Shown: in pieces, positions 1 through 63,253 of the stretch
Position numbering within the stretch: the stretch's first letter is position 1
Layout of the letters: the number at the start of each line of letters is the position of its first letter
From: Patescibacteria group bacterium
GTDB lineage: Bacteria; Patescibacteriota; Patescibacteriia; Magasanikbacterales; UBA922
Length of the DNA stretch: 64,000 nt
Reading direction: 5' to 3'
Assembly: GCA_028687045.1 (NCBI GenBank)
Contig: JAQUAW010000001.1
Span: 2,034 to 66,033 of the forward strand
Notes under the pieces: model-generated
Database searches by the model: none
Told to the model about the DNA's origin: nothing
What the model saw: only the letters and a program-made list of their open reading frames with translations
Position numbers and translations under genes: made by a program

Positions 1-525
1 GATAAAATAAAAAACACAGAAACCTTTCCTGGGTGTTTGGCGGTGATTGATCAATTGGAAATCTTGGCAGATCAGCTTGATGATGGACCGATAATTTGTC
101 TCGATGCTATTAAAGATCCAGGTAATCTAGGTACTATTATTCGCACGGCCGATTGGTTTGGTTTCAAGAATATTTTACTTTCTGAAGACACTGTGGATGT
201 CTACAATCCCAAAACTGTGCGTAGTACTATGGGTTCAATTTTTCATTTGAAGATTGCAAAAACCAGTAATCTTTTAAAAACTCTAGAAAAGCTCAAAAAA
301 GAGTCTGAATACAAAATTTACTCACTAGATTTGAAAGGGGAGAGTCACAAAAAAATGAAATATGAAGAAAAAGTTGTCTATATTTTTGGTAGTGAATCTC
401 AAGGAATTAGAGAAGGTCTTGAAAAAATAGTCGATAAGAGCTATAATATAGCAGGTCAAGGTCAAGCTGAATCACTCAATGTGGCAATTTCAGCTGCTAT
501 TGTAATGGCTAATTTATCATCCTAA
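1..525 (+). CDS. SpoU/TrmH-family RNA 2'-O-methyltransferase, C-terminal part. The 5' end is cut by the window edge and the frame is open back to position 1.
   Basis: ORF track 37..525 with no in-frame stop upstream. It has SpoU-like motifs (DPGNLGTIIRTADWFG, ESLNVAISAAI). Confidence 0.6.
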   Translation, partial: DKIKNTETFPGCLAVIDQLEILADQLDDGPIICLDAIKDPGNLGTIIRTADWFGFKNILLSEDTVDVYNPKTVRSTMGSIFHLKIAKTSNLLKTLEKLKKESEYKIYSLDLKGESHKKMKYEEKVVYIFGSESQGIREGLEKIVDKSYNIAGQGQAESLNVAISAAIVMANLSS

Positions 526-558
526 GTCGAGAATACGACGAGGGATCTGTAGACTCTG
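526..558 (+). repeat. Intergenic hairpin repeat, Y-type (…GA.GGATCTGTAGAC…)
   Basis: GTCGAGAATACGACGAGGGATCTGTAGACTCTG. Paired with an inverted X-type copy at 631..678. Confidence 0.6.
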
Positions 559-630
559 ATAACCTTCTTAATCTATTTAGCAACATCTTTTAGAATCAAT
601 TAATGATTTATTAAACAAAAACATTTATAC

Positions 631-678
631 TTAAGAAAGATCCCATGTCGAGCTTCGCCGACTTTGGGATTGTGAGAA
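631..678 (-). repeat. Intergenic hairpin repeat, X-type, abutting the gltX start
   Basis: CTTAAGAAAGATCCC…TTCGCCGACTTTGGGAT is the reverse complement of the X consensus GGTCATCCYGAGCCGACGAAGTACGGCGTAAGGATCTTTCTTAAG. Confidence 0.6.
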
Positions 679-2176: not shown

Positions 2177-3433
2177 ATGAAAAAGCGTGTTTTTTTATTT
2201 ATTTCTATTCTTATATCGGTTTTTTTGATAAACCCGTTTTTTGTTTTTACTGTCGATGCTACAGAAGTTGCTAGTACAAAAACAGATATTGATGAATTAA
2301 ATAAACAAATAGCTGACAAGAAAAATAAAGTAGCTGAATTAGAAAAGACGATTAAGGCTTACAAAGAAAAAATAGAACAAACAAAATTGGATTTTACGTC
2401 CTTGTCAAATCAATTATCTATTTTGGATAATTATATAGCCCAAGTAGATTTGGATATTCAATTTACACAACAAAAAATAGAACAAGCAGAGTTACAAATC
2501 AAAGAGATGTCTTTGTCAATTCAAGAAAAAGAAAGAGTAATAGCTGAACAACAAAGGCTTTTGTCTGGTCTTATCAGAACTATTCATTATGAAAATAATA
2601 AAAAGTATATAGAAGTAATGGCTGCTTATAATAGTTTTTCTGATTTTTATAATCGTGTTCATTATGTACAAAATCTTGAAAAAGATATGGGTAAAAGTGC
2701 CAAAACTGTTCGTTTAGCTAGAGAAGATTTGGAAAATAAGAAAAAACAAAAAGAAGAACAACAAAAGAGTTATCAAGAATTAAATGATAAATTGGATAAT
2801 AGAAAGAAAGATTTACAAGAACAAACACAATACAAAGAGAATTTACTTCTAAAAACAAAATCATCTCAACTTACTTTTAGTACTTTGGTAAATAATTTGA
2901 AACAACAGTATAGTCAAATTGAAAATGATATAAGTAGTATTGAAAATCAAGTTAGAAAAAGATTGGAAGAACAAAATAAAATAAATAATGGCAATCCACA
3001 GCAATCTGGTTTGTTGCCTCTTTCTTGGCCAACAGATAGTCGTTATGTGACAGCTTATTTTCATGACAAATCTTACCCTTTTAGAAATATTTTTGAACAT
3101 TCAGCTATTGATATTAGAGCTGCACATGGTACGCCTGTACGAGCATTAGCTTCTGGTTATATAGCCCGTACTACTCATTGTGCAACTTCTAGTTGTTATG
3201 CTTATGCTATGATAATCCATTCTGATGGTTTTTCGACTGTTTATGGACATTTGAGTAAAATTATAGTTTCAGAAGATCAGTTTGTGACTAGAGGTGATGT
3301 TATTGGTTATTCTGGTGCAACACCTGGTACTATTGGTGCTGGTCCTTTTACTACAGGCCCTCATTTACATTTGGAAGTACGTAAGAATGGTATTCCAGTA
3401 AATGCCTTAACTTACTTAGTTCAAGACTATTAA
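2177..3433 (+). CDS. Secreted coiled-coil protein with a C-terminal M23 (LytM) metallopeptidase domain; EnvC-like murein hydrolase or activator
   Basis: Signal peptide or TM at the N-terminus, a long K/E/Q-rich coiled coil, and a C-terminal HxxxD...HLHLEVRKNG motif typical of peptidase M23. Confidence 0.7.
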   Translation: MKKRVFLFISILISVFLINPFFVFTVDATEVASTKTDIDELNKQIADKKNKVAELEKTIKAYKEKIEQTKLDFTSLSNQLSILDNYIAQVDLDIQFTQQKIEQAELQIKEMSLSIQEKERVIAEQQRLLSGLIRTIHYENNKKYIEVMAAYNSFSDFYNRVHYVQNLEKDMGKSAKTVRLAREDLENKKKQKEEQQKSYQELNDKLDNRKKDLQEQTQYKENLLLKTKSSQLTFSTLVNNLKQQYSQIENDISSIENQVRKRLEEQNKINNGNPQQSGLLPLSWPTDSRYVTAYFHDKSYPFRNIFEHSAIDIRAAHGTPVRALASGYIARTTHCATSSCYAYAMIIHSDGFSTVYGHLSKIIVSEDQFVTRGDVIGYSGATPGTIGAGPFTTGPHLHLEVRKNGIPVNALTYLVQDY

Positions 3434-5719: not shown

Positions 5720-6751
5720 TTATTTCCAATAAATTCTATCAGAATAACGTAGATCTATATAATCCAAAAACTTATTTTCATCTTTTATTTTGTCTCTATA
5801 CAAAGCTTCTATTTTATTTATTTGAGATTTCACATCTATATCAAAACGTGTTTTCATATAAAATCCTTTGTATGTTTTTATGGTAAGATCTTGATGGTTA
5901 TCTTCAAATACAAAATATTTTAAAGGAATTTTTTCATTATTATCTAAATTTTTAAACCAAGCTATAATTGAGCTAACTTCATTTTTGTCTAAAACATTTT
6001 GATTGATAGTTACCTCTTGAAAATTATTTTTATCATAAATAATTGGATAATTACCTAAATCTTTTTTTATTGCATTTATGTCAGGTTCATGAAATCTAGC
6101 TATTACTATGGTAGTGGTAACTGTAGTACCATCATTTGTAGTCGTGGCTACATTTTTGGTAATATCTTTCCATTCATAATCACTGGTTTTACGCATTATT
6201 TCTACTATTTTTCCATCTAAATCAACATAGCTATATTCAATTCCATTATCATAGATAATAGTTGATATTTTTTCTTGAATAATAATTTCTAATTTATTAG
6301 GGAAACTTTTTTTGACTATTATTTTTTCTATAGGATATCTATCTTTTATAATATTTTTTATGTCATTAATATTGGCAATTAAATAGCTGTTTTGTTTGAT
6401 AAAACCGAATTTATTATAATTTAATATACCATTCACAGTGTCCAAAAGTTCTGTTTTGTTTATTCTTTGTATTCCTTCAATATTTATATTTTTGATAGAG
6501 AAAAATGGATGAAAAATAAATAAAGAAAATGTAAAAGATAAACTAAAAACTATAATAACTACTTTTAGATAAATATGATTATTGACTTTTTCATGTAAAA
6601 ATGGATTTTCCATTTCTTTGCCTTGCCAAGCAAAATCACGTCTTGTTTTTTTATAATTAAAAAAAGAGCTAAAAAACTTTTTGGTATTTTTTACTTTATG
6701 ATGAAACTTTCTTTGTAGTTTGTGATGATTTATGATTTTTTTGACTGACAT
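5720..6751 (-). CDS. ftsQ: Cell division protein FtsQ/DivIB-like (single TM plus POTRA)
   Basis: Basic N-terminus, one TM helix, then INIEGIQRINKTELLDTV, which is a POTRA signature. Confidence 0.55.
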   Translation of the reverse strand: MSVKKIINHHKLQRKFHHKVKNTKKFFSSFFNYKKTRRDFAWQGKEMENPFLHEKVNNHIYLKVVIIVFSLSFTFSLFIFHPFFSIKNINIEGIQRINKTELLDTVNGILNYNKFGFIKQNSYLIANINDIKNIIKDRYPIEKIIVKKSFPNKLEIIIQEKISTIIYDNGIEYSYVDLDGKIVEIMRKTSDYEWKDITKNVATTTNDGTTVTTTIVIARFHEPDINAIKKDLGNYPIIYDKNNFQEVTINQNVLDKNEVSSIIAWFKNLDNNEKIPLKYFVFEDNHQDLTIKTYKGFYMKTRFDIDVKSQINKIEALYRDKIKDENKFLDYIDLRYSDRIYWK

Positions 6752-6757
6752 AGAGTA

Positions 6758-6803
6758 CGGTCATCCTGAGCCGACGAAGTACGGCGTAAGGATCTTTCTT
6801 AAG
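6758..6803 (+). repeat. X-type hairpin repeat directly upstream of the ftsQ start
   Basis: CGGTCATCCTGAGCCGACGAAGTACGGCGTAAGGATCTTTCTTAAG. Confidence 0.7.
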
Positions 6804-6933
6804 AAGTACTTTTTAGAAATAATTTATGCTAATTGATTCTTATGATTTTGCTAATACTACTTAAAATATAAACATAATAAATTTTCCCCTCCATATTATT
6901 CTGTTAAATATAATTTATATTTTAGAGTTTGTA

Positions 6934-6966
6934 GGGTCTACAGATCCATCGCTCCGCTCAGGATAA
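6934..6966 (-). repeat. Y-type repeat, the inverted partner of 6758..6803
   Basis: Reverse complement is TTATCCTGAGCGGAGCGATGGATCTGTAGACCCT. Confidence 0.65.
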
Positions 6967-13989: not shown

Positions 13990-15249
13990 TTATGCTTTTA
14001 TAGTATCCTTGCCCATAAAATTCTGCAAAACTTTCGGTACTCTAATACTTCCATCCGCTTGCTGATTGTTTTCAAGTATAGCAATTGGAAAACGACTTAG
14101 TACTACAGCTGTACCATTTAGTGTATGCACAAATTCATTTTTGCCTTCCTCATTTTTATATTTGATATTTAATCTTCTTGCTTGATAATCTGTACAGTTA
14201 CTGGTACTAGTGATTTCACCATAACCACCTTTAGCTTCATCTTCAGCTTTCATCGTCATCCAAGCTTCAATATCATATTTGCGGTAAGCAGGACCACCAA
14301 GATCGCTAGTTGGAATGTCAATAACGCGATAAGGAATTTCTAAACCATCACAGATTTCTTTTTCAATACTTAATAATTCTTGATGCAAGGTTTCACTTTC
14401 TTCTGGTTTACAGAAAATAAACATTTCTAATTTGGTAAATTGATGCACACGATAAAGACCTTTGCTAGTGCGACCATAAGCTCCAGCTTCAGTACGGAAA
14501 CAGTGAGACATAGCAGCATATTTCTTTGGTCCAGAGCTCAAATCCAAAACTTCGTCAGCATGATAGCCGAGCATTGTAATTTCTGCAGTGCCAACTAAAC
14601 TCAAACCTTCATCATTAATATTATAAATTTGTTTTTCTGCTCCACGAGGATTGAAACCAGCACCAAGCAAAATTTCATGCTTAGCTAAATCTGGAGTTTC
14701 GACAAGATTGTAACCGTGTTTTGCCAAAATATCCATGCCGTAATTTAGCATCGCTTGGTTTAGTCTGACCATATCATTTTTGACAAAGTAAAACTTACTA
14801 CCAGTTACTTTGGCACCACGTTCGAAATCTATCAAATCAAGATTGATCATAAGTTCTTCATGATCTTTGGCAGGAAAATCAAAGTTTGGAATAGTTCCAC
14901 GTTCTTCGACTGTGACAAAATCTTCTTCGCCACCAATCGGACTTTGTGGATGAGTCATATTTGGTACTTGGAGCATTAGTTCCATAAAATCAGCATCAAC
15001 TTTTGCTAGTTCTTCTTCCAAAGATTTTATTTTCTCCCCTACTTCACGCATTTGTTTTATTTCTTCATCAGTTGGTTTACCTTTTGATCCACTATTTCTT
15101 TTTGAACGTAGTTCTTCTACTTCTTGCATTTTTTCTCTTTTTTGTTTGTCCAAATCAAGAAGAGTATCAATATTTATTTTGACTCTTCTATTTACACAAT
15201 TTTGTTTTATGAGTTCGCTATTGTCGCGAATGAATTTTATGTCGAGCAT
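13990..15249 (-). CDS. serS: Seryl-tRNA synthetase. The likely true start is the second Met (MLDIKFIRDN…); the ORF track extends to 15264.
   Basis: N-terminal coiled coil and class II motifs (FRTEAGAYGRTSKGLYRVHQF, GTAV…SR). Confidence 0.9.
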   Translation of the reverse strand: MLDIKFIRDNSELIKQNCVNRRVKINIDTLLDLDKQKREKMQEVEELRSKRNSGSKGKPTDEEIKQMREVGEKIKSLEEELAKVDADFMELMLQVPNMTHPQSPIGGEEDFVTVEERGTIPNFDFPAKDHEELMINLDLIDFERGAKVTGSKFYFVKNDMVRLNQAMLNYGMDILAKHGYNLVETPDLAKHEILLGAGFNPRGAEKQIYNINDEGLSLVGTAEITMLGYHADEVLDLSSGPKKYAAMSHCFRTEAGAYGRTSKGLYRVHQFTKLEMFIFCKPEESETLHQELLSIEKEICDGLEIPYRVIDIPTSDLGGPAYRKYDIEAWMTMKAEDEAKGGYGEITSTSNCTDYQARRLNIKYKNEEGKNEFVHTLNGTAVVLSRFPIAILENNQQADGSIRVPKVLQNFMGKDTIKA

Positions 15250-15258
15250 ATGGGCAAT

Positions 15259-15302
15259 GGTCATCCCGATCCGCCGAAGGACGGAAAGGGATCTTTCTTA
15301 AA
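15259..15302 (+). repeat. X-type repeat overlapping the serS 5' end
   Basis: GGTCATCCCGATCCGCCGAAGGACGGAAAGGGATCTTTCTTAAA. It has compensatory stem changes relative to copy 6758..6803. Confidence 0.7.
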
Positions 15303-15370
15303 TATAAATGTTTTTAAAATAATTGACGTTAATTGATTCTAAAAAATGTTTTTGAATAAATAAAAGTTAT

Positions 15371-15416
15371 CAGGGTCTACAGATCCATCATCGTATTCTC
15401 GACTCAGGATGACATT
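15371..15416 (-). repeat. Y-type repeat, the inverted partner of 15259..15302
   Basis: CAGGGTCTACAGATCCATCATCGTATTCTCGACTCAGGATGACATT. Confidence 0.65.
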
Positions 15417-16465
15417 GAATTACAATACTCAATCAACTCTGGCAAAATTTCTTGATATAACTTATTATTGGCTCCAATCATATCTTCGTCTCCTGCTTTT
15501 TCCAAATCAAACCATTCAATTCCCAAAGTCTCGGCGTCAGATATTTCGTTAATGTTGGAAATTACTTTACAAAGCATTGGTACTAGATACACTTGATATT
15601 TTACAACTGAATCTAACTGAGCTTCAACATATATTTTGCTGAGTTGTCTGACTACTTCTACCACATAGCCAACCTCTTCTTGAGTTTCTCTAATTACATT
15701 TGTTTCAAATGTTTCACCAAGTTCCATACTGCCACCTGGGAATTCCCACTTGTTATGGTAGTCTGGTCGATGGGGGTCATTCCTCTTGGACATAAGAATT
15801 TTTCCATTGTCTACAATGATGGCAAGTGGAACAACGATGTGTTTGACACCATACTGATTTTGTAAATAATATTTTATTTTTATCAAAGCTTTGCCGCGGT
15901 GACTTGTTGCATTTTTTTCATTCGGTGTTAGTTCTGCATAAGTTTTTCCTAAATCTTCCAAATAAAATATTGGATCATAGCCCCAAGCAGTCTCTGTGTC
16001 TACACGTTTTTCTAATACCACCCCTTCTCTTACTCCGGTATTAGAAAAAAAACTTTTTTGTTGAGGGTCATAACAAACAAGACAAGATTTGAACTGTGCT
16101 TGTCTTTTTTCTAGTGGGACATCTTTTAATTTTTCTAGTAAAATATTTATACGTTCATCAGCATCAGCACCTACTCGAGCACTAATTACTCCAGGCCAAC
16201 CATCCAAAGCATCTACAAAAATTCCACCATCGTCAGCAATACTCATTAGACCTGTTTTTTCAGCGTAGTATTTGGCTTTAAGCACGGCATTGGCTTCTAT
16301 GGTACTTTCTGTTTCTTCAGGCTCTACTATTTTTTCGGGTAATTCAGCTAGAGACAAAAAATTAAATGGCAAATCTGCCAAAAATTTTTTCATTTCTCTG
16401 AATTTACCTTCATTGGTAGTAGCGATTAATATTTTTCTTTTTTCTTCTGTCATAAGGTTTTTCAC
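15404..16465 (-). CDS. Fusion protein: an RdgB/Ham1-type non-canonical NTP pyrophosphatase (N-terminal) joined to a Nudix hydrolase (C-terminal)
   Basis: N-terminus ILIATTNEGKFREMKKFL with a Ham1-like layout. C-terminus FPGGSMELGETFETNVIRETQEEVGY is a Nudix box. Confidence 0.65.
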   Translation of the reverse strand: MKNLMTEEKRKILIATTNEGKFREMKKFLADLPFNFLSLAELPEKIVEPEETESTIEANAVLKAKYYAEKTGLMSIADDGGIFVDALDGWPGVISARVGADADERINILLEKLKDVPLEKRQAQFKSCLVCYDPQQKSFFSNTGVREGVVLEKRVDTETAWGYDPIFYLEDLGKTYAELTPNEKNATSHRGKALIKIKYYLQNQYGVKHIVVPLAIIVDNGKILMSKRNDPHRPDYHNKWEFPGGSMELGETFETNVIRETQEEVGYVVEVVRQLSKIYVEAQLDSVVKYQVYLVPMLCKVISNINEISDAETLGIEWFDLEKAGDEDMIGANNKLYQEILPELIEYCNSMSS

Positions 16466-16506
16466 AATCCCGAACCCGAGGAACGAGGGAAGGGATCTTT
16501 CTTAAA
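16462..16506 (+). repeat. X-type repeat at the start of the RdgB-Nudix gene
   Basis: TCACAATCCCGAACCCGAGGAACGAGGGAAGGGATCTTTCTTAAA. Confidence 0.7.
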
Positions 16507-25227: not shown

Positions 25228-25253
25228 GGAAAGATTCTTCGCTCCGCTCAGAA
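25228..25253 (-). repeat. X'-type repeat, the inverted partner of 25088..25116 (about 110-bp spacer)
   Basis: GGAAAGATTCTTCGCTCCGCTCAGAA, the reverse complement of TTCTGAGCGGAGCGAAGAATCTTTCC. Confidence 0.6.
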
Positions 25254-25640
25254 TTAATTTGCCTTATGCTTGACTGAAATATTGAACGAAATAATCAAGA
25301 CAAACATAATCAAGAGTAAACTTCCAGTAACCATATTTAAATAATTTTGACCTTGTAAAAACAAAGCTAAAATCATAAATAATGACAAAAATAATGATTG
25401 ACGAAAGCTTATTTGGACATAGCGGAATAGCGGCAAATCTTTGGCTCCGAAAAATCTATAAAAGAAAAAGAATATAATTGACAAAGTCCCAAGTACTGAC
25501 AAAAAAAGGCTTCCATAAAAGAAAAGAAAGCCTGATAAAGGTGATGAAGTAGGATCAACATTTAAAATAACAAAAAACCAAGATACCCAACATAGTATCG
25601 TGGCAAAGAGCATTGTAGCAATATATTGACGTAAATTCAT
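25254..25640 (-). CDS. Small polytopic membrane protein of unknown function
   Basis: 128 aa with about 4 TM helices. Confidence 0.4.
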   Translation of the reverse strand: MNLRQYIATMLFATILCWVSWFFVILNVDPTSSPLSGFLFFYGSLFLSVLGTLSIIFFFFYRFFGAKDLPLFRYVQISFRQSLFLSLFMILALFLQGQNYLNMVTGSLLLIMFVLIISFNISVKHKAN

Positions 25641-47729: not shown

Positions 47730-47744
47730 ATATTTTTTACTAAT

Positions 47745-47775
47745 CTTGAGCGGAGCGAAAGATCTGTAGACCCTG
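47745..47775 (+). repeat. Y-type repeat upstream of the atpA start
   Basis: CTTGAGCGGAGCGAAAGATCTGTAGACCCTG. Confidence 0.6.
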
Positions 47776-47804: not shown

Positions 47805-48191
47805 TTAAATAGTTAAACTTTTTTTTAAATTTGTCAATTGTGTTTTCACACTAGCATCCAATATTTTATCTTCTATTTTCACTCTAATACCACCTATCAA
47901 ATTTTTATCAATCTTTTCTTGAACAAAAACTTCTTTACCAAAAGATTCTTTAATTTTTTTGATAATTTCACTATCCAAATCTCTTGCAGAAGTTACTTCC
48001 AATTCAACTATTCCTTGTTTCTTCTTAAGAATAGTTTCAAATTCAGCTATAATATTATTGGTTTGTTTTATTTTGTGTTTTTTAGCTAGTAGACCCACAA
48101 AATTTTTCAAAACAATATCTAAATCACTAGCATTCAAACCAATAGTCAATTCGTAAAGAGCTTCAGCAAATTGTTTATTAGAAATTTTCAT
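47805..48191 (-). CDS. atpH: F1 ATP synthase delta (OSCP) subunit, short form
   Basis: C-terminal IGGIRVKIEDKILDASV is typical of delta. It sits between atpF and atpA. Confidence 0.65.
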   Translation of the reverse strand: MKISNKQFAEALYELTIGLNASDLDIVLKNFVGLLAKKHKIKQTNNIIAEFETILKKKQGIVELEVTSARDLDSEIIKKIKESFGKEVFVQEKIDKNLIGGIRVKIEDKILDASVKTQLTNLKKSLTI

Positions 48192-48200
48192 ATATTTACG

Positions 48201-48243
48201 TCATTCCGACCCGCCGAATCGGCGGGGAGGGATATTTCTTAAA
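48201..48243 (+). repeat. X-type repeat upstream of the atpH start
   Basis: TCATTCCGACCCGCCGAATCGGCGGGGAGGGATATTTCTTAAA, with the perfect inner stem CCCGCCGA/TCGGCGGG. Confidence 0.65.
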
Positions 48244-48308
48244 TCTAAATTATTTTAATTTACAAAACTTTCAAATGATTCTAAAATACTTTTTCAATTA
48301 ATTTATTA

Positions 48309-57811: not shown

Positions 57812-59680
57812 GTGATTGCCAAAATCATTCCACTTACAAGACTACCTAGGGCTTTTTCTTTTTTTGATTATACCATACCTGAAAATTTGGAAAAATCACT
57901 AAAAACAGGTCAATTGGTAGAAATACCTTTCCGCTCCAAAAGTATCTTTGGTATTGTTTATGATATTGAAAAAAATGATAATGAAAAATTAAAAGAACTA
58001 AAAAGTATTGTAAACGAAATAGCTATTTTTAGTAAAAAACAATTGGAGATGTACTTACTTTTGTCTGAAATTTATCTAATATCTCCTTCGGTATTACTAA
58101 AAATGAGTTTGTTGCCACTACAAAAAAGAAAATTACAAAAGATAGCACTGCAAACTTTTACAGAAAAAGCTAAAAAAGAAAATACCCAAAGTTATCATTT
58201 TTATAATTCAAAAGAAGAACATAAAAAAATATATAAAAATATAGAAAATAATAGTTTGCTAATAGTACCAGAAGTTAGACAAATTGAAGAAATAAAAAAA
58301 ATTCTCCCAAAAAAATTACAAGACAAAATAGTCGTCTGGTATTCTGAACTTAGTACCAAACAAAAATTTGAAAATTGGCTACAAATAAAAAATGGTGAAA
58401 AAACAATTATCATAGGTACACGCAATGCTCTATTTTTACCATTCAATAATTTGGACAAAATTATTATTGACTTTGAACATGATGAAAATTTAAAAAGTTG
58501 GGATAGTACACCTAAATTCCAAACCAAAGACATTGTAAAATTTTTACAAAAATTATATTCTTGCGATATTAGCTTTGCTAGTTTTTCACCTAGTTTTGAA
58601 AAGTATTACGAAATAAACAAAGGACAAATTGAATACTCCCAAAAATTGACTAAAGATAAATTACTATTCAAAAATACAAAATCAAATTTACCAACAGTCA
58701 TAAATATTTCAAACAAAAATTTTAGTCAAAATAAAAGTGTTTTTTCACTAGATTTGGAAGAGAGAATAAGAACAGCTACCAAAGATGTCTTCATTTATAT
58801 AAATAGAAAAGGTTTTGCCACAACCACACAATGTCTAAATTGTGGTTATATAGCTCGTGATCCTCAGACAAATCTACCTCTTATTTACGACCAAAGCAAA
58901 AATATTCTCTATTCACCTTACAGCAAATTTAGTCAAAAGTTCTCCCCTACCTGTCCCGAATGCAAAAGTGAATTGATAAAAAACTATGGCTACGGCACAG
59001 AGTTAGTAGAACAAGAAGTAAAAAAAATAATGAACACAGAAAGTTCTCATGATATTATTAAGCTAGACAAAGATAGTAATCAATTAGAAACAACATCTAA
59101 TCAAGCTCGTATTATCATTGGTACAAATGCAGCTATCAAAGCTATCAACTGGGAACAGACTGACTTGATCATTTTTCTCGATATTGATAGACAATTAGCG
59201 ATACCTGAATATTTATCCCAAGAAAACATCTGGCACAATATTCAAGAAATAAATTATTATCGAAATGAACAAAGCAAATTTTATATTCAAACTAATAATC
59301 CAGAACATACTATTTTCAAATCACTAGGCGAAAAAGACAGAATATATAGGACAGAACTAAACACTCGACAAAAACTAGGTTTATTTCCTTACCAATATGT
59401 AGTAAAATATTACTGTGGAACTGATAGTGAAAACAAAAGCAAGAACCTATCAGAACAAACTGCCAAAAATGTTATGACAGCATTGACAAAACTAGCCAAA
59501 AATGCTACAATACTCGGCCCTTACGAAATGCAACCAAAATATTTTCGTAAGCAATATTGGTATGGTTTCGCTCTAAAAATTGCTGATAAAAACTCATTAT
59601 CAGTAATCAGGCAAATCAATCAATATATTCCTGGCAACTTCAAAATAGATCCTAATCCTATTTCGTTGCTTTCTCCTTAA
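57812..59680 (+). CDS. priA: Primosomal protein N' (PriA)-like protein with a Zn-ribbon and an atypical, apparently degenerate Walker A region
   Basis: N-terminal KIIPLTRLPRAFSFFDYTIPENL…GQLVEIPFRSKSIFGIVYDI is PriA-like. The CxxC…CxxC Zn ribbon is present. No GxGKT is recognisable. Confidence 0.55.
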   Translation: MIAKIIPLTRLPRAFSFFDYTIPENLEKSLKTGQLVEIPFRSKSIFGIVYDIEKNDNEKLKELKSIVNEIAIFSKKQLEMYLLLSEIYLISPSVLLKMSLLPLQKRKLQKIALQTFTEKAKKENTQSYHFYNSKEEHKKIYKNIENNSLLIVPEVRQIEEIKKILPKKLQDKIVVWYSELSTKQKFENWLQIKNGEKTIIIGTRNALFLPFNNLDKIIIDFEHDENLKSWDSTPKFQTKDIVKFLQKLYSCDISFASFSPSFEKYYEINKGQIEYSQKLTKDKLLFKNTKSNLPTVINISNKNFSQNKSVFSLDLEERIRTATKDVFIYINRKGFATTTQCLNCGYIARDPQTNLPLIYDQSKNILYSPYSKFSQKFSPTCPECKSELIKNYGYGTELVEQEVKKIMNTESSHDIIKLDKDSNQLETTSNQARIIIGTNAAIKAINWEQTDLIIFLDIDRQLAIPEYLSQENIWHNIQEINYYRNEQSKFYIQTNNPEHTIFKSLGEKDRIYRTELNTRQKLGLFPYQYVVKYYCGTDSENKSKNLSEQTAKNVMTALTKLAKNATILGPYEMQPKYFRKQYWYGFALKIADKNSLSVIRQINQYIPGNFKIDPNPISLLSP

Positions 59681-59754
59681 ACTAGTAAACACAACAGATT
59701 CGGCCTAATAAACCGATAAACTAATAAACTCAATATTTCATGAAGCAACATGCA

Positions 59755-59786
59755 CAGGATCTACAGATCTCTCGCTACGCTTCGAG
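59755..59786 (-). repeat. Y-type repeat upstream of the def start
   Basis: CAGGATCTACAGATCTCTCGCTACGCTTCGAG. Confidence 0.55.
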
Positions 59787-59804
59787 ATTTATTATAGAAT
59801 TCCT

Positions 59805-60302
59805 ATGACACTAGACATTATCACAATCCCTAATGAGAATCTTAGAAAAAAATCTGTAGAAGTAGATCTTGATTTTGTGCGTGATGAAAATAGTCAAAAA
59901 CTTTTTGACGACATGATAAAAACTATGTATGAAGATGATGGTATTGGCTTGGCAGCACCTCAGATTGGCAAAAATATTCGTGTCTGTGTAATAGGCAGAG
60001 AAGCTCTCAAGATGGACAAACACAATACTCTACCAGTAGAAGATCTAGTACTTATAAATCCAACTTGGCAAAAAATAAACAAAAAAACTCATGTGGAATT
60101 AGAAGGTTGCCTTTCTGTACCAAAAACTTATGGCAAAGTAAAACGCTACAAAAATGTTTATGTAGAAGCACTAAATCGTAAAGGAGAACATATCGAGTTT
60201 GAAGCCAACAACTTTTTTGCTAAGGCTGTCCAACATGAAGTAGATCATCTTAATGGCGTTTTGTTTATTGACAAAGCGACTGGGATTTACGAGATAGAGT
60301 AA
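59805..60302 (+). CDS. def: Peptide deformylase
   Basis: GIGLAAPQIG, EGCLSVP and HEVDHLNG motifs. Confidence 0.9.
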   Translation: MTLDIITIPNENLRKKSVEVDLDFVRDENSQKLFDDMIKTMYEDDGIGLAAPQIGKNIRVCVIGREALKMDKHNTLPVEDLVLINPTWQKINKKTHVELEGCLSVPKTYGKVKRYKNVYVEALNRKGEHIEFEANNFFAKAVQHEVDHLNGVLFIDKATGIYEIE

Positions 60303-60438
60303 TTAAATATACTAATATACAAATTATACGAATGATACTAATAATACAAATACTCAATTAAACAATTATTTAGTAGAAAAAAATTAGTAATATTTGTATC
60401 ATTTGTAACATTAGTATATTGGTATAATATTCATTAGT

Positions 60439-61362
60439 ATGCAAAAAATAAAAATCATTTTCTTTGGAACACACGAATTTGCCAAAACAATTTTACAAGG
60501 ACTTATTGATAGTTCTCTTTTTGAAATAGAAAAAGTCATTACCCAACCAGACAAACCAGTTGGACGTAAACAAATTTTGCAAAAATCCCCTGTTAAAATT
60601 CTAGCCGAAGAATTTGGATTAGAAATTGATCAACCAGAAAGCTTAAAAAACTACGAACTATTGGTTAATGACTCTGAACTATTCATCGTCGCTCAATATG
60701 GTCTACTCATTCCTGAAAACATTTTGAATATTCCAAAATTTGGAACAATAAATACTCACACTTCCCTACTACCAAAATATCGTGGAGCTTCACCTATTCA
60801 ATCAGCAATTTTCAATGGTGAAAAAGAAACAGGTGTCACCATCATGCTAATGGACAGAGGTATGGACTCTGGGCCTATTTTGAGCCAAAAAACAGTACCA
60901 ATACTAGCAGATGAAACTTATATAGATTTAGATGAAAAAATGGCGCAAATCGCCTCACAATTGCTTCTAGATACAATACCAAAGTATATTGACGATGAAA
61001 TAAAGCCACAAACTCAAAATGAAGCTGAAATAACATTTTGTAAAAAATTAGACAGAGATGATGGTAAAATTGATTGGAAAAAATCTACATCAGAAATTTA
61101 CAATCAATATCGTGCTTTCACACCATGGCCAGGTGTCTGGACTACTTGGAATGACAAACGTCTAAAACTTTTGAAAATGTATCCCAGTGATAAAAAAATA
61201 GAAACTGGTAAAGTATCTATAGAAAATGGTAAAATATATATTGGCACTATCGACAGTTCTTTAGAAATACTGGAATTACAATTAGAAGGAAAACCTTCTA
61301 TGATGGTCTCAGTGTTTATAAATGGTTATGGTAAAAATTTTGATAACACTCTCCTAAAATAA
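60439..61362 (+). CDS. fmt: Methionyl-tRNA formyltransferase
   Basis: N-terminal formyltransferase motifs (INTHTSLLPKYRGASPIQ) and a C-terminal OB-like domain. Confidence 0.9.
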   Translation: MQKIKIIFFGTHEFAKTILQGLIDSSLFEIEKVITQPDKPVGRKQILQKSPVKILAEEFGLEIDQPESLKNYELLVNDSELFIVAQYGLLIPENILNIPKFGTINTHTSLLPKYRGASPIQSAIFNGEKETGVTIMLMDRGMDSGPILSQKTVPILADETYIDLDEKMAQIASQLLLDTIPKYIDDEIKPQTQNEAEITFCKKLDRDDGKIDWKKSTSEIYNQYRAFTPWPGVWTTWNDKRLKLLKMYPSDKKIETGKVSIENGKIYIGTIDSSLEILELQLEGKPSMMVSVFINGYGKNFDNTLLK

Positions 61363-61370
61363 CCAATTTT

Positions 61371-61413
61371 GTCATCCTGAACCGACGAAGTACGGTGAAG
61401 GATCTTTCCTAAA
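61371..61413 (+). repeat. X-type repeat between fmt and the GIY-YIG gene
   Basis: GTCATCCTGAACCGACGAAGTACGGTGAAGGATCTTTCCTAAA. Confidence 0.7.
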
Positions 61414-61437
61414 ATAATTTTAATTAATAAATAATTT

Positions 61438-61728
61438 ATGGGAGGAAATAATTATTATGTTTATATAATGACAAGTATAAGTGGCGTTTTATATATTGGG
61501 GTTACAAATGATTTAAGACGTCGAGTGATTGAACATAAAAATGAATTAATAGATGGTTTTACAAAAAAATATAAATGTCATAAGTTAGTGTACTACGAAT
61601 ATTTTACTGATATAAATTATGCCATTCGACGTGAAAAAGAATTAAAAGGTTGGAAAAGAATCAAAAAAATAGAATTAATTAAAAAAGATAATTATAATTT
61701 AATTGATTTATTTCCGAAAATTAATTAG
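61438..61728 (+). CDS. Small stand-alone GIY-YIG nuclease (YhbQ/UPF0213-like)
   Basis: YYVYIMTS…VLYIGVTNDLRRRVIEH…; 96 aa. Confidence 0.8.
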   Translation: MGGNNYYVYIMTSISGVLYIGVTNDLRRRVIEHKNELIDGFTKKYKCHKLVYYEYFTDINYAIRREKELKGWKRIKKIELIKKDNYNLIDLFPKIN

Positions 61729-61749
61729 TTGGAAGTGTATAAATTTAAA

Positions 61750-61784
61750 AAAGATTCTTCGTCCTCTACGGGACTCAGAATGAC
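61750..61784 (-). repeat. Diverged X-type repeat in inverted orientation, downstream of the GIY-YIG gene
   Basis: AAAGATTCTTCGTCCTCTACGGGACTCAGAATGAC. Confidence 0.5.
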
Positions 61785-61807
61785 AGTTAGAAAGATTAGT
61801 TTAATCC

Positions 61808-63253
61808 GTGTTCCAATCTAAACATTTCAATGTGAAAAATTTTAATAAAGAAATGACACCTAAAAAGTTAGAATATTTACTTCTAACATTTTTTTTGATT
61901 CTACGTCTAGCTTCTTTTTGGACTTACCAAAATCTTGTTTGGAATTCTAGTTTAGCAACTATTTTGATAATCAGCTTCACTTATTTGACTCTAAAAAATC
62001 TACCACTAGCCTGGACAATTCTCGTAACAGAACTTTTCTTAGATGGAGCTGGCGGTTTTTTTCAACTAGGTGGACTAATACTCCGTACTTGGTTTCTTGG
62101 TATTTTTGCTCTTGCCTGGCTAGGGTCAAAAATAAAAAATAGAAAACTAAATCTGAGTCTTCCAAAACCAATACTAATCACTCTCCTACTTTCTATTTTT
62201 ACAATCTTACTAGCTATAATCTTGGGATTGAAAAATGGACATGGAACTATACTTGTTTTACAAGATGCAATTCTATATTTCTTTGTTTTCTTATTATTTC
62301 CAACTTTGGAATTTACCAACTTCCCAAAAAAATATTTTATAAGTCTCAGCAAGATATTTATCATATTATCAGGAGTATTTTCTCTTTTAACTTTTTTTAT
62401 TTATTCTAGTGCTTTAGGTTTTTTACAAAACCCTTATTACCACTGGTTTCGTGACATTGCTGGTGGCAAAATTACAGATCTAGGAAATCACTTTTTTCGA
62501 GTAGTATTGTCCAATCAAATTATCATAGTTCCTCTTGTTTTAATCTTTATTTCTTATTTGATTAAACAATCTACAAATAAAAAATGGTGGTTTTTGACAT
62601 CATTATCTTTGTTGATTCTAATCATGAATTTTTCACGTATTTATTTTCTAGCCCTTGCTTTCGGCATGCTGATTTTGGCATACAAAAATAACTTCAAAAA
62701 ATGGTTTCTAACTTCCCTTACGATTACAACTTTATTTATCACAATCTTTATTTCTTTGAACCTTGTTTCTAGCCGTTTCAATTCTATTGGTTTAGAACTT
62801 ATTGGTTTAAAAATATCTTCTATACAAAAACCAAGTGATGATATTAGTGGAGCCATTCGACTCGCAATGTTACCAGATATAAAAGAAAAAATATCTACAC
62901 ATCCCTATTTTGGCTCTGGTCTAGCTACCCAAGTAAGCTATGAAGATCCTGCTACAAAAGAAATAGTTACTCGCACTCAGTTTGATTGGGGTTATTTTGA
63001 AATGTTGGCTGAACTAGGCTTTGTAGGTACCTTCATATTCTTACTTTTTATTATCATGGTACTTTATTATTTAGCAAAATTAGTTTATAAACAAAAAAGC
63101 CCACTTCATTTAGGACTTTTTGCCGGAGCTATTTCACTATTTGTTATCAATATTACAACTCCTGCTCTATTTCAAGGTTTTGGAATACTCTACTTTGTAT
63201 TTATTATGAAAATTATTTCTGAAAATCATCAAGATGATGTTTCTCTACAATAA
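61808..63253 (+). CDS. O-antigen ligase/polymerase-like polytopic membrane protein (Wzy_C-like). The start may be the downstream ATG (MTPKK…).
   Basis: 481 aa, about 12 TM helices, with a large periplasmic loop near the C-terminal third. Confidence 0.5.
   Translation: MFQSKHFNVKNFNKEMTPKKLEYLLLTFFLILRLASFWTYQNLVWNSSLATILIISFTYLTLKNLPLAWTILVTELFLDGAGGFFQLGGLILRTWFLGIFALAWLGSKIKNRKLNLSLPKPILITLLLSIFTILLAIILGLKNGHGTILVLQDAILYFFVFLLFPTLEFTNFPKKYFISLSKIFIILSGVFSLLTFFIYSSALGFLQNPYYHWFRDIAGGKITDLGNHFFRVVLSNQIIIVPLVLIFISYLIKQSTNKKWWFLTSLSLLILIMNFSRIYFLALAFGMLILAYKNNFKKWFLTSLTITTLFITIFISLNLVSSRFNSIGLELIGLKISSIQKPSDDISGAIRLAMLPDIKEKISTHPYFGSGLATQVSYEDPATKEIVTRTQFDWGYFEMLAELGFVGTFIFLLFIIMVLYYLAKLVYKQKSPLHLGLFAGAISLFVINITTPALFQGFGILYFVFIMKIISENHQDDVSLQ

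What the first reader, a model, noticed from the sequence alone, without database searches (positions are those of the whole stretch)
61371..61784. Small GIY-YIG nuclease gene bracketed by inverted copies of the hairpin repeat
Seen: an X-type copy at 61371..61413 and a diverged inverted copy at 61750..61784 enclose only the 96-aa GIY-YIG ORF (61438..61728). The bracket lies between fmt and an O-antigen-ligase-like gene.
Established: GIY-YIG domains serve as homing endonucleases and as the nuclease of some mobile elements.
Inference: the GIY-YIG protein may be the mobilising or processing nuclease for this repeat family, so this locus could be an autonomous copy and the others MITE-like non-autonomous copies. 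Alternatively the gene is cargo caught between two elements.
Basis: partly seen in the sequence, partly recalled or inferred. Interest (0 to 1): 0.75.

Follow-up and report, generated by a model that had tools for sequence, protein, structure and literature searches.

The report
Ssn hairpin-cutting nuclease gene with repeats
The small gene is a member of the recently described Ssn family of nucleases that cut single-stranded DNA next to a specific hairpin, and it sits between two inverted copies of that hairpin, so this is a new example of a known system.

Summary
A 96-aa single-domain GIY-YIG ORF (61438-61728) lies between a forward hairpin repeat (61370-61412) and an inverted copy (61747-61785), between fmt and a Wzy_C ligase gene, in a Patescibacteria (Magasanikbacteria-like) genome.

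It is not new in kind. The protein is 45% identical (E 9e-26) to the gonococcal ortholog of SsnA. SsnA is the site-specific ssDNA endonuclease of Chenal et al. 2025 (PMC11893778), which binds "NTS/SRM" hairpins and cuts a few nt 5' of their GTCAT tag. The repeats keep the SRM features that paper found critical: the (T)GTC tag, a stem starting AT, and a C after the stem. They have a longer two-part stem and fail the published SRM search pattern.

Across 76 homolog loci from more than 10 phyla, the same bracket recurs in 38 under a strict detector. Close relatives show an empty fmt-ligase site, or a lone hairpin with an ssn remnant. The window also holds a deletion series: a 22-codon ssn remnant and two ~155-nt gene-less hairpin pairs.

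The nuclease-repeat partnership and the "autonomous copy plus MITE-like derivatives" picture are therefore supported. Actual transposition by this hydrolytic nuclease remains unproven. Verdict: new member of a known kind, moderate interest.

The parts
61370..61412 (+). Left (upstream) SRM hairpin, X-type. TGTC tag 61370-61373; outer stem 61374-61378 / 61399-61403; GA/GA internal loop; inner stem ACCG/CGGT; C at 61404; tail TTTCCTAA.
61438..61728 (+). ssn gene: 96-aa single-domain GIY-YIG nuclease of the Ssn family. Catalytic-residue equivalents are Y9, Y19 and E66.
61747..61785 (-). Right (downstream) SRM hairpin in inverted orientation. Tag TGTC at 61785-61782 on the - strand; outer stem ATTCT/AGAAT; GA/GA loop; inner stem GTCC/GGAC; C at 61753; T-rich tail.
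61363..61369 (+). Predicted Ssn cut zone on the top strand, about 3 nt 5' of the TGTC tag. Inference by analogy with N. meningitidis SsnA.
   Evidence: inference from PMC11893778
61786..61792 (-). Predicted Ssn cut zone on the bottom strand (inference). A burst of 12 substitutions against a sister strain starts at 61786.
6760..6966 (-). Decayed element. Y-type arm (degenerate) 6934-6966; in-frame 22-codon ssn remnant 6829-6894 (MEGKIYYVYILSSISKIIRIN*); X-type arm 6760-6800.
15260..15413 (-). ~155-nt gene-less pair of inverted SRMs. Y arm 15373-15413; remnant of the last ssn codons TTTTTTAGAATCAATTAA 15328-15343; X arm 15260-15300.
515..673 (+). Second ~155-nt gene-less SRM pair with the same internal layout (127/149 identical to 15260-15413). 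Its tags are degenerate.
48200..48290 (+). Solo X-type SRM (48200-48240) followed by a tail that holds the reverse complement of the ssn 3' end (48270-48286).
16464..16497 (+). X-type hairpin with a degenerate tag (CACAAT).
25233..25257 (-). Short X-like hairpin with a degenerate tag.
47740..47775 (+). Degenerate Y-type hairpin.
59745..59791 (-). Degenerate Y-type hairpin between priA and def.

Best explanation
The locus is an SRM-ssn-SRM unit of the Ssn system.

Shown by homology: ORF 61438-61728 encodes a single-domain GIY-YIG enzyme of the Ssn family of site-specific single-stranded-DNA endonucleases.

Inferred from the characterised homologs: the enzyme acts when the flanking repeats become single-stranded (during replication, repair or DNA uptake) and fold into hairpins. 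It binds the hairpin, reading the stem and the C just 3' of it. It then hydrolyses the same strand a few nucleotides 5' of the (T)GTCAT tag. It does not cut the complementary strand, dsDNA or RNA. Here the two tags face outward, so the two predicted cuts fall just outside the 416-bp unit, one on each strand.

Shown by comparison: the unit is an insertion/deletion polymorphism among close relatives. The window also holds internally deleted, gene-less derivatives that keep the two hairpin ends.

Inferred and not shown: the intact gene supplies in trans the nuclease that acts on all tag-bearing copies. This would either promote their spread (IS/MITE-like behaviour) or, as in Neisseria, cut ssDNA at these sites and so modulate recombination of incoming DNA.
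For: Protein:
- Pfam GIY-YIG only, 96 aa.
- AF2 model with pLDDT 90. Best PDB folds are UPF0213 BH0048, Slx1 and the UvrC N-terminal domain.
- tblastn E 1e-14 to a 94-aa N. gonorrhoeae ORF that carries Y6, Y17 and E64 and is flanked by canonical NTS.
- BLASTP 45% identity, E 9e-26; hhalign probability 99.9%.
- Three differences from a sister strain in the gene, all synonymous.

Published function: PMC11893778.

Repeats:
- TGTC tag, stem starting AT, and C after the stem in both arms.
- Compensatory inner-stem changes between orthologous copies.

Family-wide bracket:
- Homolog N- and C-termini read into the hairpins (CHSEQSEESL, DPSLRSG).
- Of 76 loci, 45 have a forward copy upstream, 48 a reverse copy downstream and 38 both. 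Far-flank density is 0.245 per kb.
- Some homolog flanks are near-canonical NTS.

Site polymorphism:
- L089 and L091 have the fmt stop, 3 nt, then the ligase start.
- L087 and L088 have a solo hairpin plus an ssn 3' remnant.
- L090 has a solo hairpin.

Deletion series.
Against: - No biochemical data exist for this protein or these hairpins.
- The hairpins fail the published SRM search pattern (0 hits in the window). Their stems are two-part rather than 8-9 contiguous bp.
- In N. gonorrhoeae the tags around ssnA face inward, the opposite of this locus. The bracket geometry is therefore not a fixed family feature.
- No target-site duplication was found.
- The window holds only one intact gene.
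- The serS-upstream hairpin pair is conserved at the same site in relatives with 84-85% serS identity. That points to long vertical persistence rather than recent jumping.
- A hydrolytic nuclease that cuts one strand at one end has no known route to cut-and-paste transposition.
Confidence: 0.8

Rival explanations
1. Domesticated, immobile host system. The hairpins are long-lived chromosomal sites. The nuclease only restricts or trims ssDNA at them, for example incoming transforming DNA. The repeats spread or decay through ordinary recombination and not through any action of Ssn. This overlaps with the best explanation on identity and differs only on mobility.
For: - The only demonstrated biological role is a 5-fold change in transformation in N. 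meningitidis.
- The serS-upstream hairpin pair is orthologous in relatives with 84-85% serS identity.
- The window has one intact gene.
- Sister strains show mosaic, recombination-like divergence around the locus.
Against: - Nearly the same ~155-nt internally deleted unit sits at two unrelated loci.
- The fmt-ligase site occurs in empty, solo and full states, with different junctions.
- The protein is 60-68% identical across many phyla, while fmt falls to 40-49% outside the closest relatives.
Confidence: 0.4
2. The gene is passive cargo that happens to lie between two unrelated REP-type hairpins. Those hairpins would act as terminators or mRNA-stabilising structures.
For: - The hairpins lie at gene boundaries, and some supply stop codons.
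- The X-type tail is T-rich.
Against: - The bracket recurs around homologs in more than 10 phyla with a strong orientation bias.
- No terminator is predicted at either arm.
- No Rfam family matches.
- SsnA does not bind RNA.
Confidence: 0.03
3. Free-standing GIY-YIG homing endonuclease that targets the fmt-ligase intergenic dsDNA of relatives lacking it.
For: - The gene is present or absent at one site among relatives.
- ssn and its arms differ by about 1% from a sister strain, and substitutions cluster just outside the right arm.
Against: - The protein has no DNA-binding domain and is 96 aa.
- Homologs sit in unrelated genomic contexts.
- Characterised homologs do not cut dsDNA.
- The low divergence is not specific to the element: the ligase stretch 61838-62637 is also about 1% diverged.
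Confidence: 0.04

Closest known systems
Ssn / NTS-SRM system (SsnA of Neisseria meningitidis; Chenal et al., Nat Commun 2025, PMC11893778)
   Same: - Single-domain ~94-96-aa GIY-YIG protein, 45% identical, with conserved catalytic Tyr/Tyr/Glu.
- Gene flanked on both sides by oriented hairpin repeats with a GTC(AT) tag, a stem starting AT and a C after the stem.
- Many further hairpin copies elsewhere in the genome.
   Different: - The host is a Patescibacteria (CPR) genome, a group not mentioned in the paper.
- The hairpin has a 5-bp outer stem, a GA/GA internal loop and a variable inner stem, and it fails the published SRM search pattern.
- The tags face outward here and inward at the gonococcal ssnA locus.
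- Activity is untested.
CGTC/TGTC-tagged REP superfamily (Di Nocera et al. 2013, PMC3733652)
   Same: - Terminal (C/T)GTC tag.
- Stem beginning with A-T pairs and a short unpaired tail.
- Frequent head-to-head dimers.
- Intergenic location.
   Different: - The four described families have 8-9 contiguous bp and 4-5-nt loops. Here the stem is two-part and loops are 3-8 nt.
- The tail is CTTTCTTAAA or CTGTAGACCC, not CCA.
- That paper found no dedicated enzyme.
REPIN-RAYT systems and IS200/IS605
   Same: - Small enzyme gene flanked by inverted hairpin repeats that are recognised as ssDNA.
- Gene-less inverted hairpin doublets dispersed in the genome.
- Long vertical persistence.
   Different: The enzyme is a hydrolytic GIY-YIG nuclease, not an HUH/Y1 transposase. 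No covalent intermediate is known, and no strand transfer has been shown.
GIY-YIG homing endonucleases (I-TevI, Seg proteins)
   Same: GIY-YIG catalytic domain, and presence/absence polymorphism of the gene.
   Different: - No DNA-binding domain.
- ssDNA hairpin target rather than a dsDNA homing site.
- Not located in an intron or a phage.
UPF0213 / YhbQ / Slx1 GIY-YIG proteins
   Same: Closest solved folds (1zg2, 1ywl, Slx1).
   Different: Only about 25-31% identity (E 5e-5). These are a different subfamily and are not associated with repeats.

Membership tests
Ssn nuclease family (cd10448) | Single GIY-YIG domain of about 94-100 aa with no extra domain | tested here: met
   The 96-aa ORF matches PF01541 over residues 5-75 and has no other Pfam hit. 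The AF2 model is a compact GIY-YIG fold with pLDDT 90.
Ssn nuclease family (cd10448) | Homology to Neisseria SsnA at E < 1e-10 (the paper's criterion) | tested here: met
   tblastn E 1e-14 against a 7.3-Gb collection, BLASTP 45% identity with E 9e-26, and hhalign probability 99.9%. The comparator is the 94-aa N. gonorrhoeae ORF. I take it to be the SsnA ortholog from its length, its Y6/Y17/E64 and its NTS flanks. It is not NMV_0044 itself.
Ssn nuclease family (cd10448) | Catalytic residues Y6, Y17 and E64 of SsnA conserved | tested here: met
   They align with Y9, Y19 and E66 of the window protein. These positions are invariant in the 20-sequence alignment.
Ssn nuclease family (cd10448) | Assignment to CDD model cd10448 and placement in the Ssn clade | not testable with these tools
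   No CDD library and no reference tree are available. NCBIfam gave no significant family.
Ssn nuclease family (cd10448) | Site-specific cleavage of ssDNA only, a few nt 5' of the hairpin | not testable with these tools
   This needs biochemistry.
SRM / NTS hairpin repeats | GTC tag directly 5' of the palindrome, and a C directly 3' of it (the positions critical for cutting and binding) | tested here: met
   Both arms and the copies at 6760, 15260, 15413 and 48200 have these features.
SRM / NTS hairpin repeats | Match to the published degenerate pattern HGTCWYN(0-2)YYVSBRHN(0-5)WNVSBRGN(0-2)RNCYNB | tested here: not met
   There are 0 matches in the window on either strand. Only 13 of 76 homolog loci have an adjacent match. 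The local hairpins are longer and two-part.
SRM / NTS hairpin repeats | SRM copies on both sides of the ssn gene | tested here: met
   Copies lie at 61370-61412 and 61747-61785. The same arrangement is found in 38 of 76 homolog loci with a strict structural detector.
CGTC-tagged REPs (families 1-4) | Contiguous 8-9-bp stem, 4-5-nt loop and a CCA-like tail | tested here: not met
   The local form is a 5-bp outer stem, an internal loop, a 3-7-bp inner stem and loops of 3-8 nt, with tails CTTTCTTAAA or CTGTAGACCC.
Autonomous IS with MITE derivatives | Terminal inverted repeats around an enzyme gene, plus internally deleted copies that keep both ends | tested here: met
   There is one intact unit, a 22-codon remnant unit, and two ~155-nt gene-less units that are 85% identical at unrelated loci.
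Autonomous IS with MITE derivatives | Presence/absence polymorphism with an identifiable empty site | tested here: met
   L089 and L091 are empty. L087, L088 and L090 carry a solo hairpin. The window and L001-L006 carry the full unit.
Autonomous IS with MITE derivatives | Target-site duplication or a defined target | tested here: inconclusive
   No convincing direct repeat flanks the unit. The 14-nt D3 repeat is explained by the conserved SRM tail plus the AT-rich end of fmt.
Autonomous IS with MITE derivatives | The enzyme catalyses excision and integration | not testable with these tools
   Only ssDNA nicking is known for the family (PMC11893778).
REPIN-RAYT | HUH/Y1 tyrosine transposase | tested here: not met
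   The protein is GIY-YIG.
GIY-YIG homing endonuclease | C-terminal DNA-binding domain, intron or phage context | tested here: not met
   The protein is a single 96-aa domain in a chromosomal intergenic context.

The most novel reading that the evidence does not exclude
SRM-ssn-SRM units are active, autonomous mobile elements of a mechanistically new class, driven by a hydrolytic ssDNA-hairpin-specific GIY-YIG nuclease rather than a DDE, HUH, serine or tyrosine enzyme. The widespread (C/T)GTC-tagged REP superfamily, including the ~155-nt gene-less hairpin pairs here, would be their MITE population, mobilised in trans. The empty, solo and full states of the fmt-ligase site and the deletion series in this window would then be natural-history evidence for that activity.
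Probability: 0.3. Interest if true: 0.7.

Novelty: new member of a known kind. Interest (0 to 1): 0.35.

Why it matters
The Ssn/SRM partnership was published in 2025, so the core finding is a rediscovery.

This locus adds three things:
- It shows a clean instance in a CPR/Patescibacteria genome.
- Its hairpin variant escapes the published SRM search pattern, so that pattern undercounts the family.
- It gives comparative evidence on a question the paper left open, namely whether the unit behaves like an insertion sequence. The evidence is an empty site, a solo-hairpin site with a gene remnant, and a nested deletion series.

If Ssn does drive the spread of (C/T)GTC-tagged REPs, that would settle the "REPs without a transposase" problem raised in 2013.

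Tried and rejected
- **Rfam:** a scan of the whole window at gathering thresholds gave no hit and, incidentally, no tRNA.
- **Terminators:** the terminator scan found nothing at either arm.
- **Published SRM pattern:** 0 hits in the window. I wrote a structural detector instead. At a 4-bp stem it was too permissive (6.7 chance hits), so I used 5 bp or more.
- **Target-site duplication:** the 14-nt direct repeat D3 looked like one. I rejected it because TCTTTCCTA is part of the SRM tail in L087 as well.
- **"Element more conserved than its flanks, so recently spread":** rejected. Divergence from the sister strain is mosaic, and the ligase 5' half is equally similar.
- **L075:** its two ssn copies are a tandem ~1.2-kb duplication, so they say nothing about element boundaries.
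- **MAFFT alignment of solo-copy tails to the intact 3' end:** ambiguous in AT-rich sequence. The claim that the tails are ssn 3' remnants rests on two things. The FRIN*/KIN* codon match is unique to this lineage among 120 homologs. The longer 6760-6966 copy retains the N-terminal codons.
- **PDB:** neither the sequence search nor the fold search found a solved Ssn structure.
- **Paper supplements:** none are held, so NMV_0044 itself could not be compared. A gonococcal chromosome mislabelled as a plasmid in PLSDB supplied the ortholog.
- **Phage collection:** only weak GIY-YIG hits.

Full report
**Observation**

- A forward hairpin repeat, TGTCATCCTGAACCGACGAAGTACGGTGAAGGATCTTTCC, lies at 61370-61409. 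It begins 8 nt after the fmt stop codon.
- A 96-aa ORF lies at 61438-61728.
- An inverted copy lies at 61747-61785. On the minus strand it reads TGTCATTCTGAGTCCCGTAGAGGACGAAGAATCTTTTTT. It ends 22 nt before the GTG of the next ORF.

Pfam assigns the ORF to GIY-YIG (PF01541, E 4.7e-14). The neighbours are peptide deformylase, fmt, a Wzy_C O-antigen-ligase-like protein and a family-2 glycosyltransferase.

Both arms fold the same way: a 5-bp outer stem (ATYCT/AGRAT) that starts right after GTC, a symmetric GA/GA internal loop, a 4-bp inner stem whose sequence differs between the arms, and a C right after the stem. The shared end motifs are over-represented in the window (7 against 1.3 expected).

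**The repeat family in the window**

Tag-intact copies lie at 6760 (+), 15260 (+), 15413 (-), 48200 (+), 61371 (+) and 61784 (-). Relaxed scans add degenerate copies at 515, 639, 6934, 16464, 25233, 47740 and 59766 (25 candidates against 6.6 in shuffles, about 11 of them clearly family members).

There are two tail types:
- "X": GGATCTTTCTTAAA.
- "Y": GGATCTGTAGACCC.

Inner stems vary with compensatory changes, including between orthologous copies in different genomes. Examples are GCCGGC..GCACGGC in L151 against GCTGGC..GCACAGC in L153, and CCGA..TACGG against CCTA..TAAGG in L090. The hairpin itself is therefore under selection. Rfam has no matching family, and no intrinsic terminator is predicted at the two arms.

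**What the protein is**

A database search returned more than 6,700 homologs, the closest at about 70% identity and the rest of the best 120 down to 58%. The exact protein occurs at the same fmt-ligase site in six metagenome contigs, named "Patescibacteria group bacterium". The serS gene of the window places the organism with Candidatus Magasanikbacteria.

The literature search found Chenal et al. 2025 (PMC11893778). Its main points are:
- SsnA of N. meningitidis is a 94-aa single-domain GIY-YIG protein (CDD cd10448).
- It binds the hairpin repeat NTS (CGTCATTCCCGCGMAVGCGGGAATCYRG) only as ssDNA and cuts a few nt upstream.
- The three bases 5' of the palindrome are critical for cutting, and the C after it is critical for binding.
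- It does not act on the reverse strand, dsDNA or RNA.
- 71% of homolog genes have "Ssn-related motifs" (SRM) nearby, and 42% have them on both sides.

A gonococcal chromosome filed as a plasmid in PLSDB supplied the ortholog: 94 aa, with Y6, Y17 and E64 exactly as mutated in the paper, and flanked by canonical NTS. The window protein is 45% identical to it over the full length (E 9e-26; hhalign probability 99.9%). Y9, Y19 and E66 align with the catalytic residues.

The AF2 model (pLDDT 90) is a bare GIY-YIG fold. Its nearest solved structures are UPF0213 BH0048, Slx1 and the UvrC N-terminal domain. No Ssn structure is in the PDB copy.

I therefore file the ORF as an Ssn-family member. CDD membership and enzymatic activity could not be tested.

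**What the repeats are**

They have the SRM hallmarks: the (T)GTC tag, a stem beginning A-T, and a C after the stem. They also belong to the "(C/T)GTC-tagged REP" superfamily of Di Nocera et al. 2013 (PMC3733652), which that paper said "apparently lack a dedicated transposase".

They are nevertheless a structural variant. The published SRM pattern finds none in the window, and the stems are two-part rather than 8-9 contiguous bp.

**Is the bracket a family feature or an accident?**

Homolog proteins carry N-terminal extensions such as CHSEQSEESL and C-terminal tails such as DPSLRSG or DPSSAKASLGMT. These are translations of a forward hairpin upstream and an inverted one downstream (16 of 120 by a simple pattern).

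I fetched 80 loci from one genome per species, spanning more than 10 phyla with 51-68% protein identity. Nearly all show the hairpins by eye. I then applied a strict detector: GTC, a perfect outer stem of at least 5 bp, then C. In the 76 loci with full flanks it finds:
- a forward copy upstream in 45 (reverse in 18);
- a reverse copy downstream in 48 (forward in 22);
- both in 38;
- 0.245 copies per kb in the far flanks.

Several flanks are near-canonical NTS (for example L016, L020 and L030). The "chance cargo" alternative is rejected.

The outward-facing tag orientation seen here is the commonest arrangement but is not universal. At the gonococcal ssnA locus the tags face inward.

**Empty sites**

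Metagenome relatives with the same priA-def-fmt-ligase-GT2 synteny show three states of the site downstream of fmt:
- **Empty:** L089 and L091 (fmt 82% identical) have the fmt stop, 3 nt, then the ligase ATG. L092 is also empty.
- **Solo hairpin:** L087 and L088 (priA 97%, fmt 85%) and L090 have one X-type hairpin fused to the fmt 3' end, which supplies its stop codon. In L087 and L088 a tail follows that contains the reverse complement of the ssn 3' end.
- **Full unit:** the window, L001-L006 and L112.

The fmt-hairpin junction differs by about 15 nt between the solo and the full states. In L087 the gene remnant is in the opposite orientation to the intact gene of the window. This suggests either independent events or an inversion between the inverted arms; I could not decide between them.

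**Deletion series inside the window**

- The pair of arms at 6760-6966 encloses, on the minus strand, an in-frame 22-codon ORF, MEGKIYYVYILSSISKIIRIN*. It has the N-terminal 15 residues and the last few residues of an Ssn protein. Support comes from tblastn E 0.07 at window scale, and from the 14-mer TATTATGTTTATAT, which occurs only there and in the intact gene.
- Two ~155-nt gene-less pairs, 515-673 and 15260-15413, sit at unrelated loci, share the same internal layout and are 127/149 identical. They retain only TTTT(TT)AGAATCAATTAA, which reads (F)FRIN*. The intact gene ends LFPKIN*, an ending found in no other of the 120 closest homologs.
- The solo copy at 48200 and the L087 copy keep the same tail.

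These derivatives have a Y-type upstream arm and an X-type downstream arm, and about 73% nt identity to the intact gene in the remnant. They therefore descend from a paralogous element, not from the 61370-61785 copy.

The serS-upstream pair is orthologous in relatives with 84-85% serS identity (L151-L153). It is missing in the closest relative (L150, 98%), where two small paralogous ORFs occupy the site. These units can therefore persist vertically for long periods, as REPINs do.

**Mechanism**

Shown: protein family, hairpin features, recurrence of the bracket, site polymorphism and the deletion series.

Inferred from the homologs: the protein binds the extruded ssDNA hairpin and hydrolyses the same strand about 3 nt 5' of the tag. 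I derived this position from the oligo lengths reported in the paper. With outward-facing tags, the predicted cuts fall near 61366/61367 on the top strand and 61788/61789 on the bottom strand, just outside the unit.

A sister strain differs from the window by 3 synonymous changes in ssn and a few changes in the left hairpin, but by 12 substitutions in 61786-61828, starting at the first base outside the right arm. This is suggestive only, because divergence along the whole region is mosaic.

How single nicks by a hydrolytic enzyme would lead to copying is unknown. Nick-primed strand displacement or gene conversion between SRM-bearing sites are speculative routes. The alternative, equally compatible with the data, is a domesticated system that cuts ssDNA at these sites and modulates recombination, as shown for Neisseria.

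**Comparison and novelty**

The closest known system is Ssn/NTS-SRM. Membership of the protein family is met on every feature I could test. The hairpins meet the functional hallmarks but not the published search pattern.

The unit works like REPIN-RAYT or IS200/IS605 in layout but is not a member of those families, because it has no HUH enzyme. It is not a homing endonuclease, because it has no DNA-binding domain and its homologs sit in varied contexts.

Verdict: a new member of a known kind, in a phylum not discussed in the paper. It brings a hairpin variant and useful comparative evidence for IS/MITE-like behaviour, but no proof of mobility.

Scores:
- Interest: 0.35.
- Most novel reading not excluded (an autonomous GIY-YIG-driven element whose MITEs are the (C/T)GTC-tagged REPs): probability 0.3, interest 0.7 if true.

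Noticed in passing
L150 1781-2443 (Ga0172380_10000008), versus window 15260-15413: In the closest relative (serS 98% identical) the gene-less hairpin pair upstream of serS is absent. Two paralogous small ORFs (109 and 106 aa, no Pfam hit) occupy the site. More distant relatives (84-85%) keep the hairpin pair.
   Followed up: partly
window 59540-60740, and L001: Divergence from a sister strain is mosaic. The end of priA, def and the start of fmt differ by 10-65 of every 100 nt, against about 0-5 in most other stretches (a second diverged patch lies at 62638-62837). A degenerate Y-type hairpin (59745-59791) lies in the most diverged stretch. This recalls the report that genes next to dRS3/NTS are more variable in Neisseria.
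   Followed up: partly
window 61786-61828: Twelve substitutions against the L001 strain begin at the first base outside the right hairpin arm. This is where Ssn would be predicted to cut the bottom strand.
   Followed up: no
window 6751-6769, 15249-15269, 48191-48209, 15404-15413; L087 ~3410-3425; L090 ~3410-3425: The GTCAT end of the hairpins abuts ORF boundaries.
- Three X-type copies end 8-9 nt from the ATG of minus-strand genes, where the reverse complement reads GGATGAC-N8-ATG.
- In three cases the TGA inside GTCATYCTGA serves as the stop codon: window gene 15404-16465, and fmt in L087 and L090.
   Followed up: partly
L149 456-486 and 876-905 (N. gonorrhoeae NZ_CP119140.1): PLSDB holds 2.17-Mb gonococcal chromosomes labelled as plasmids. 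At the ssnA locus there, the NTS tags face the gene, the opposite of the outward orientation that predominates in the 76 homolog loci.
   Followed up: partly
L075 2001-2258 and 3206-3463: A Terracidiphilus MAG carries a tandem ~1.2-kb duplication that includes the ssn homolog and its hairpins (86% identity between the copies).
   Followed up: partly
window, whole: No tRNA gene and no Rfam family at gathering threshold in 64 kb.
   Followed up: no
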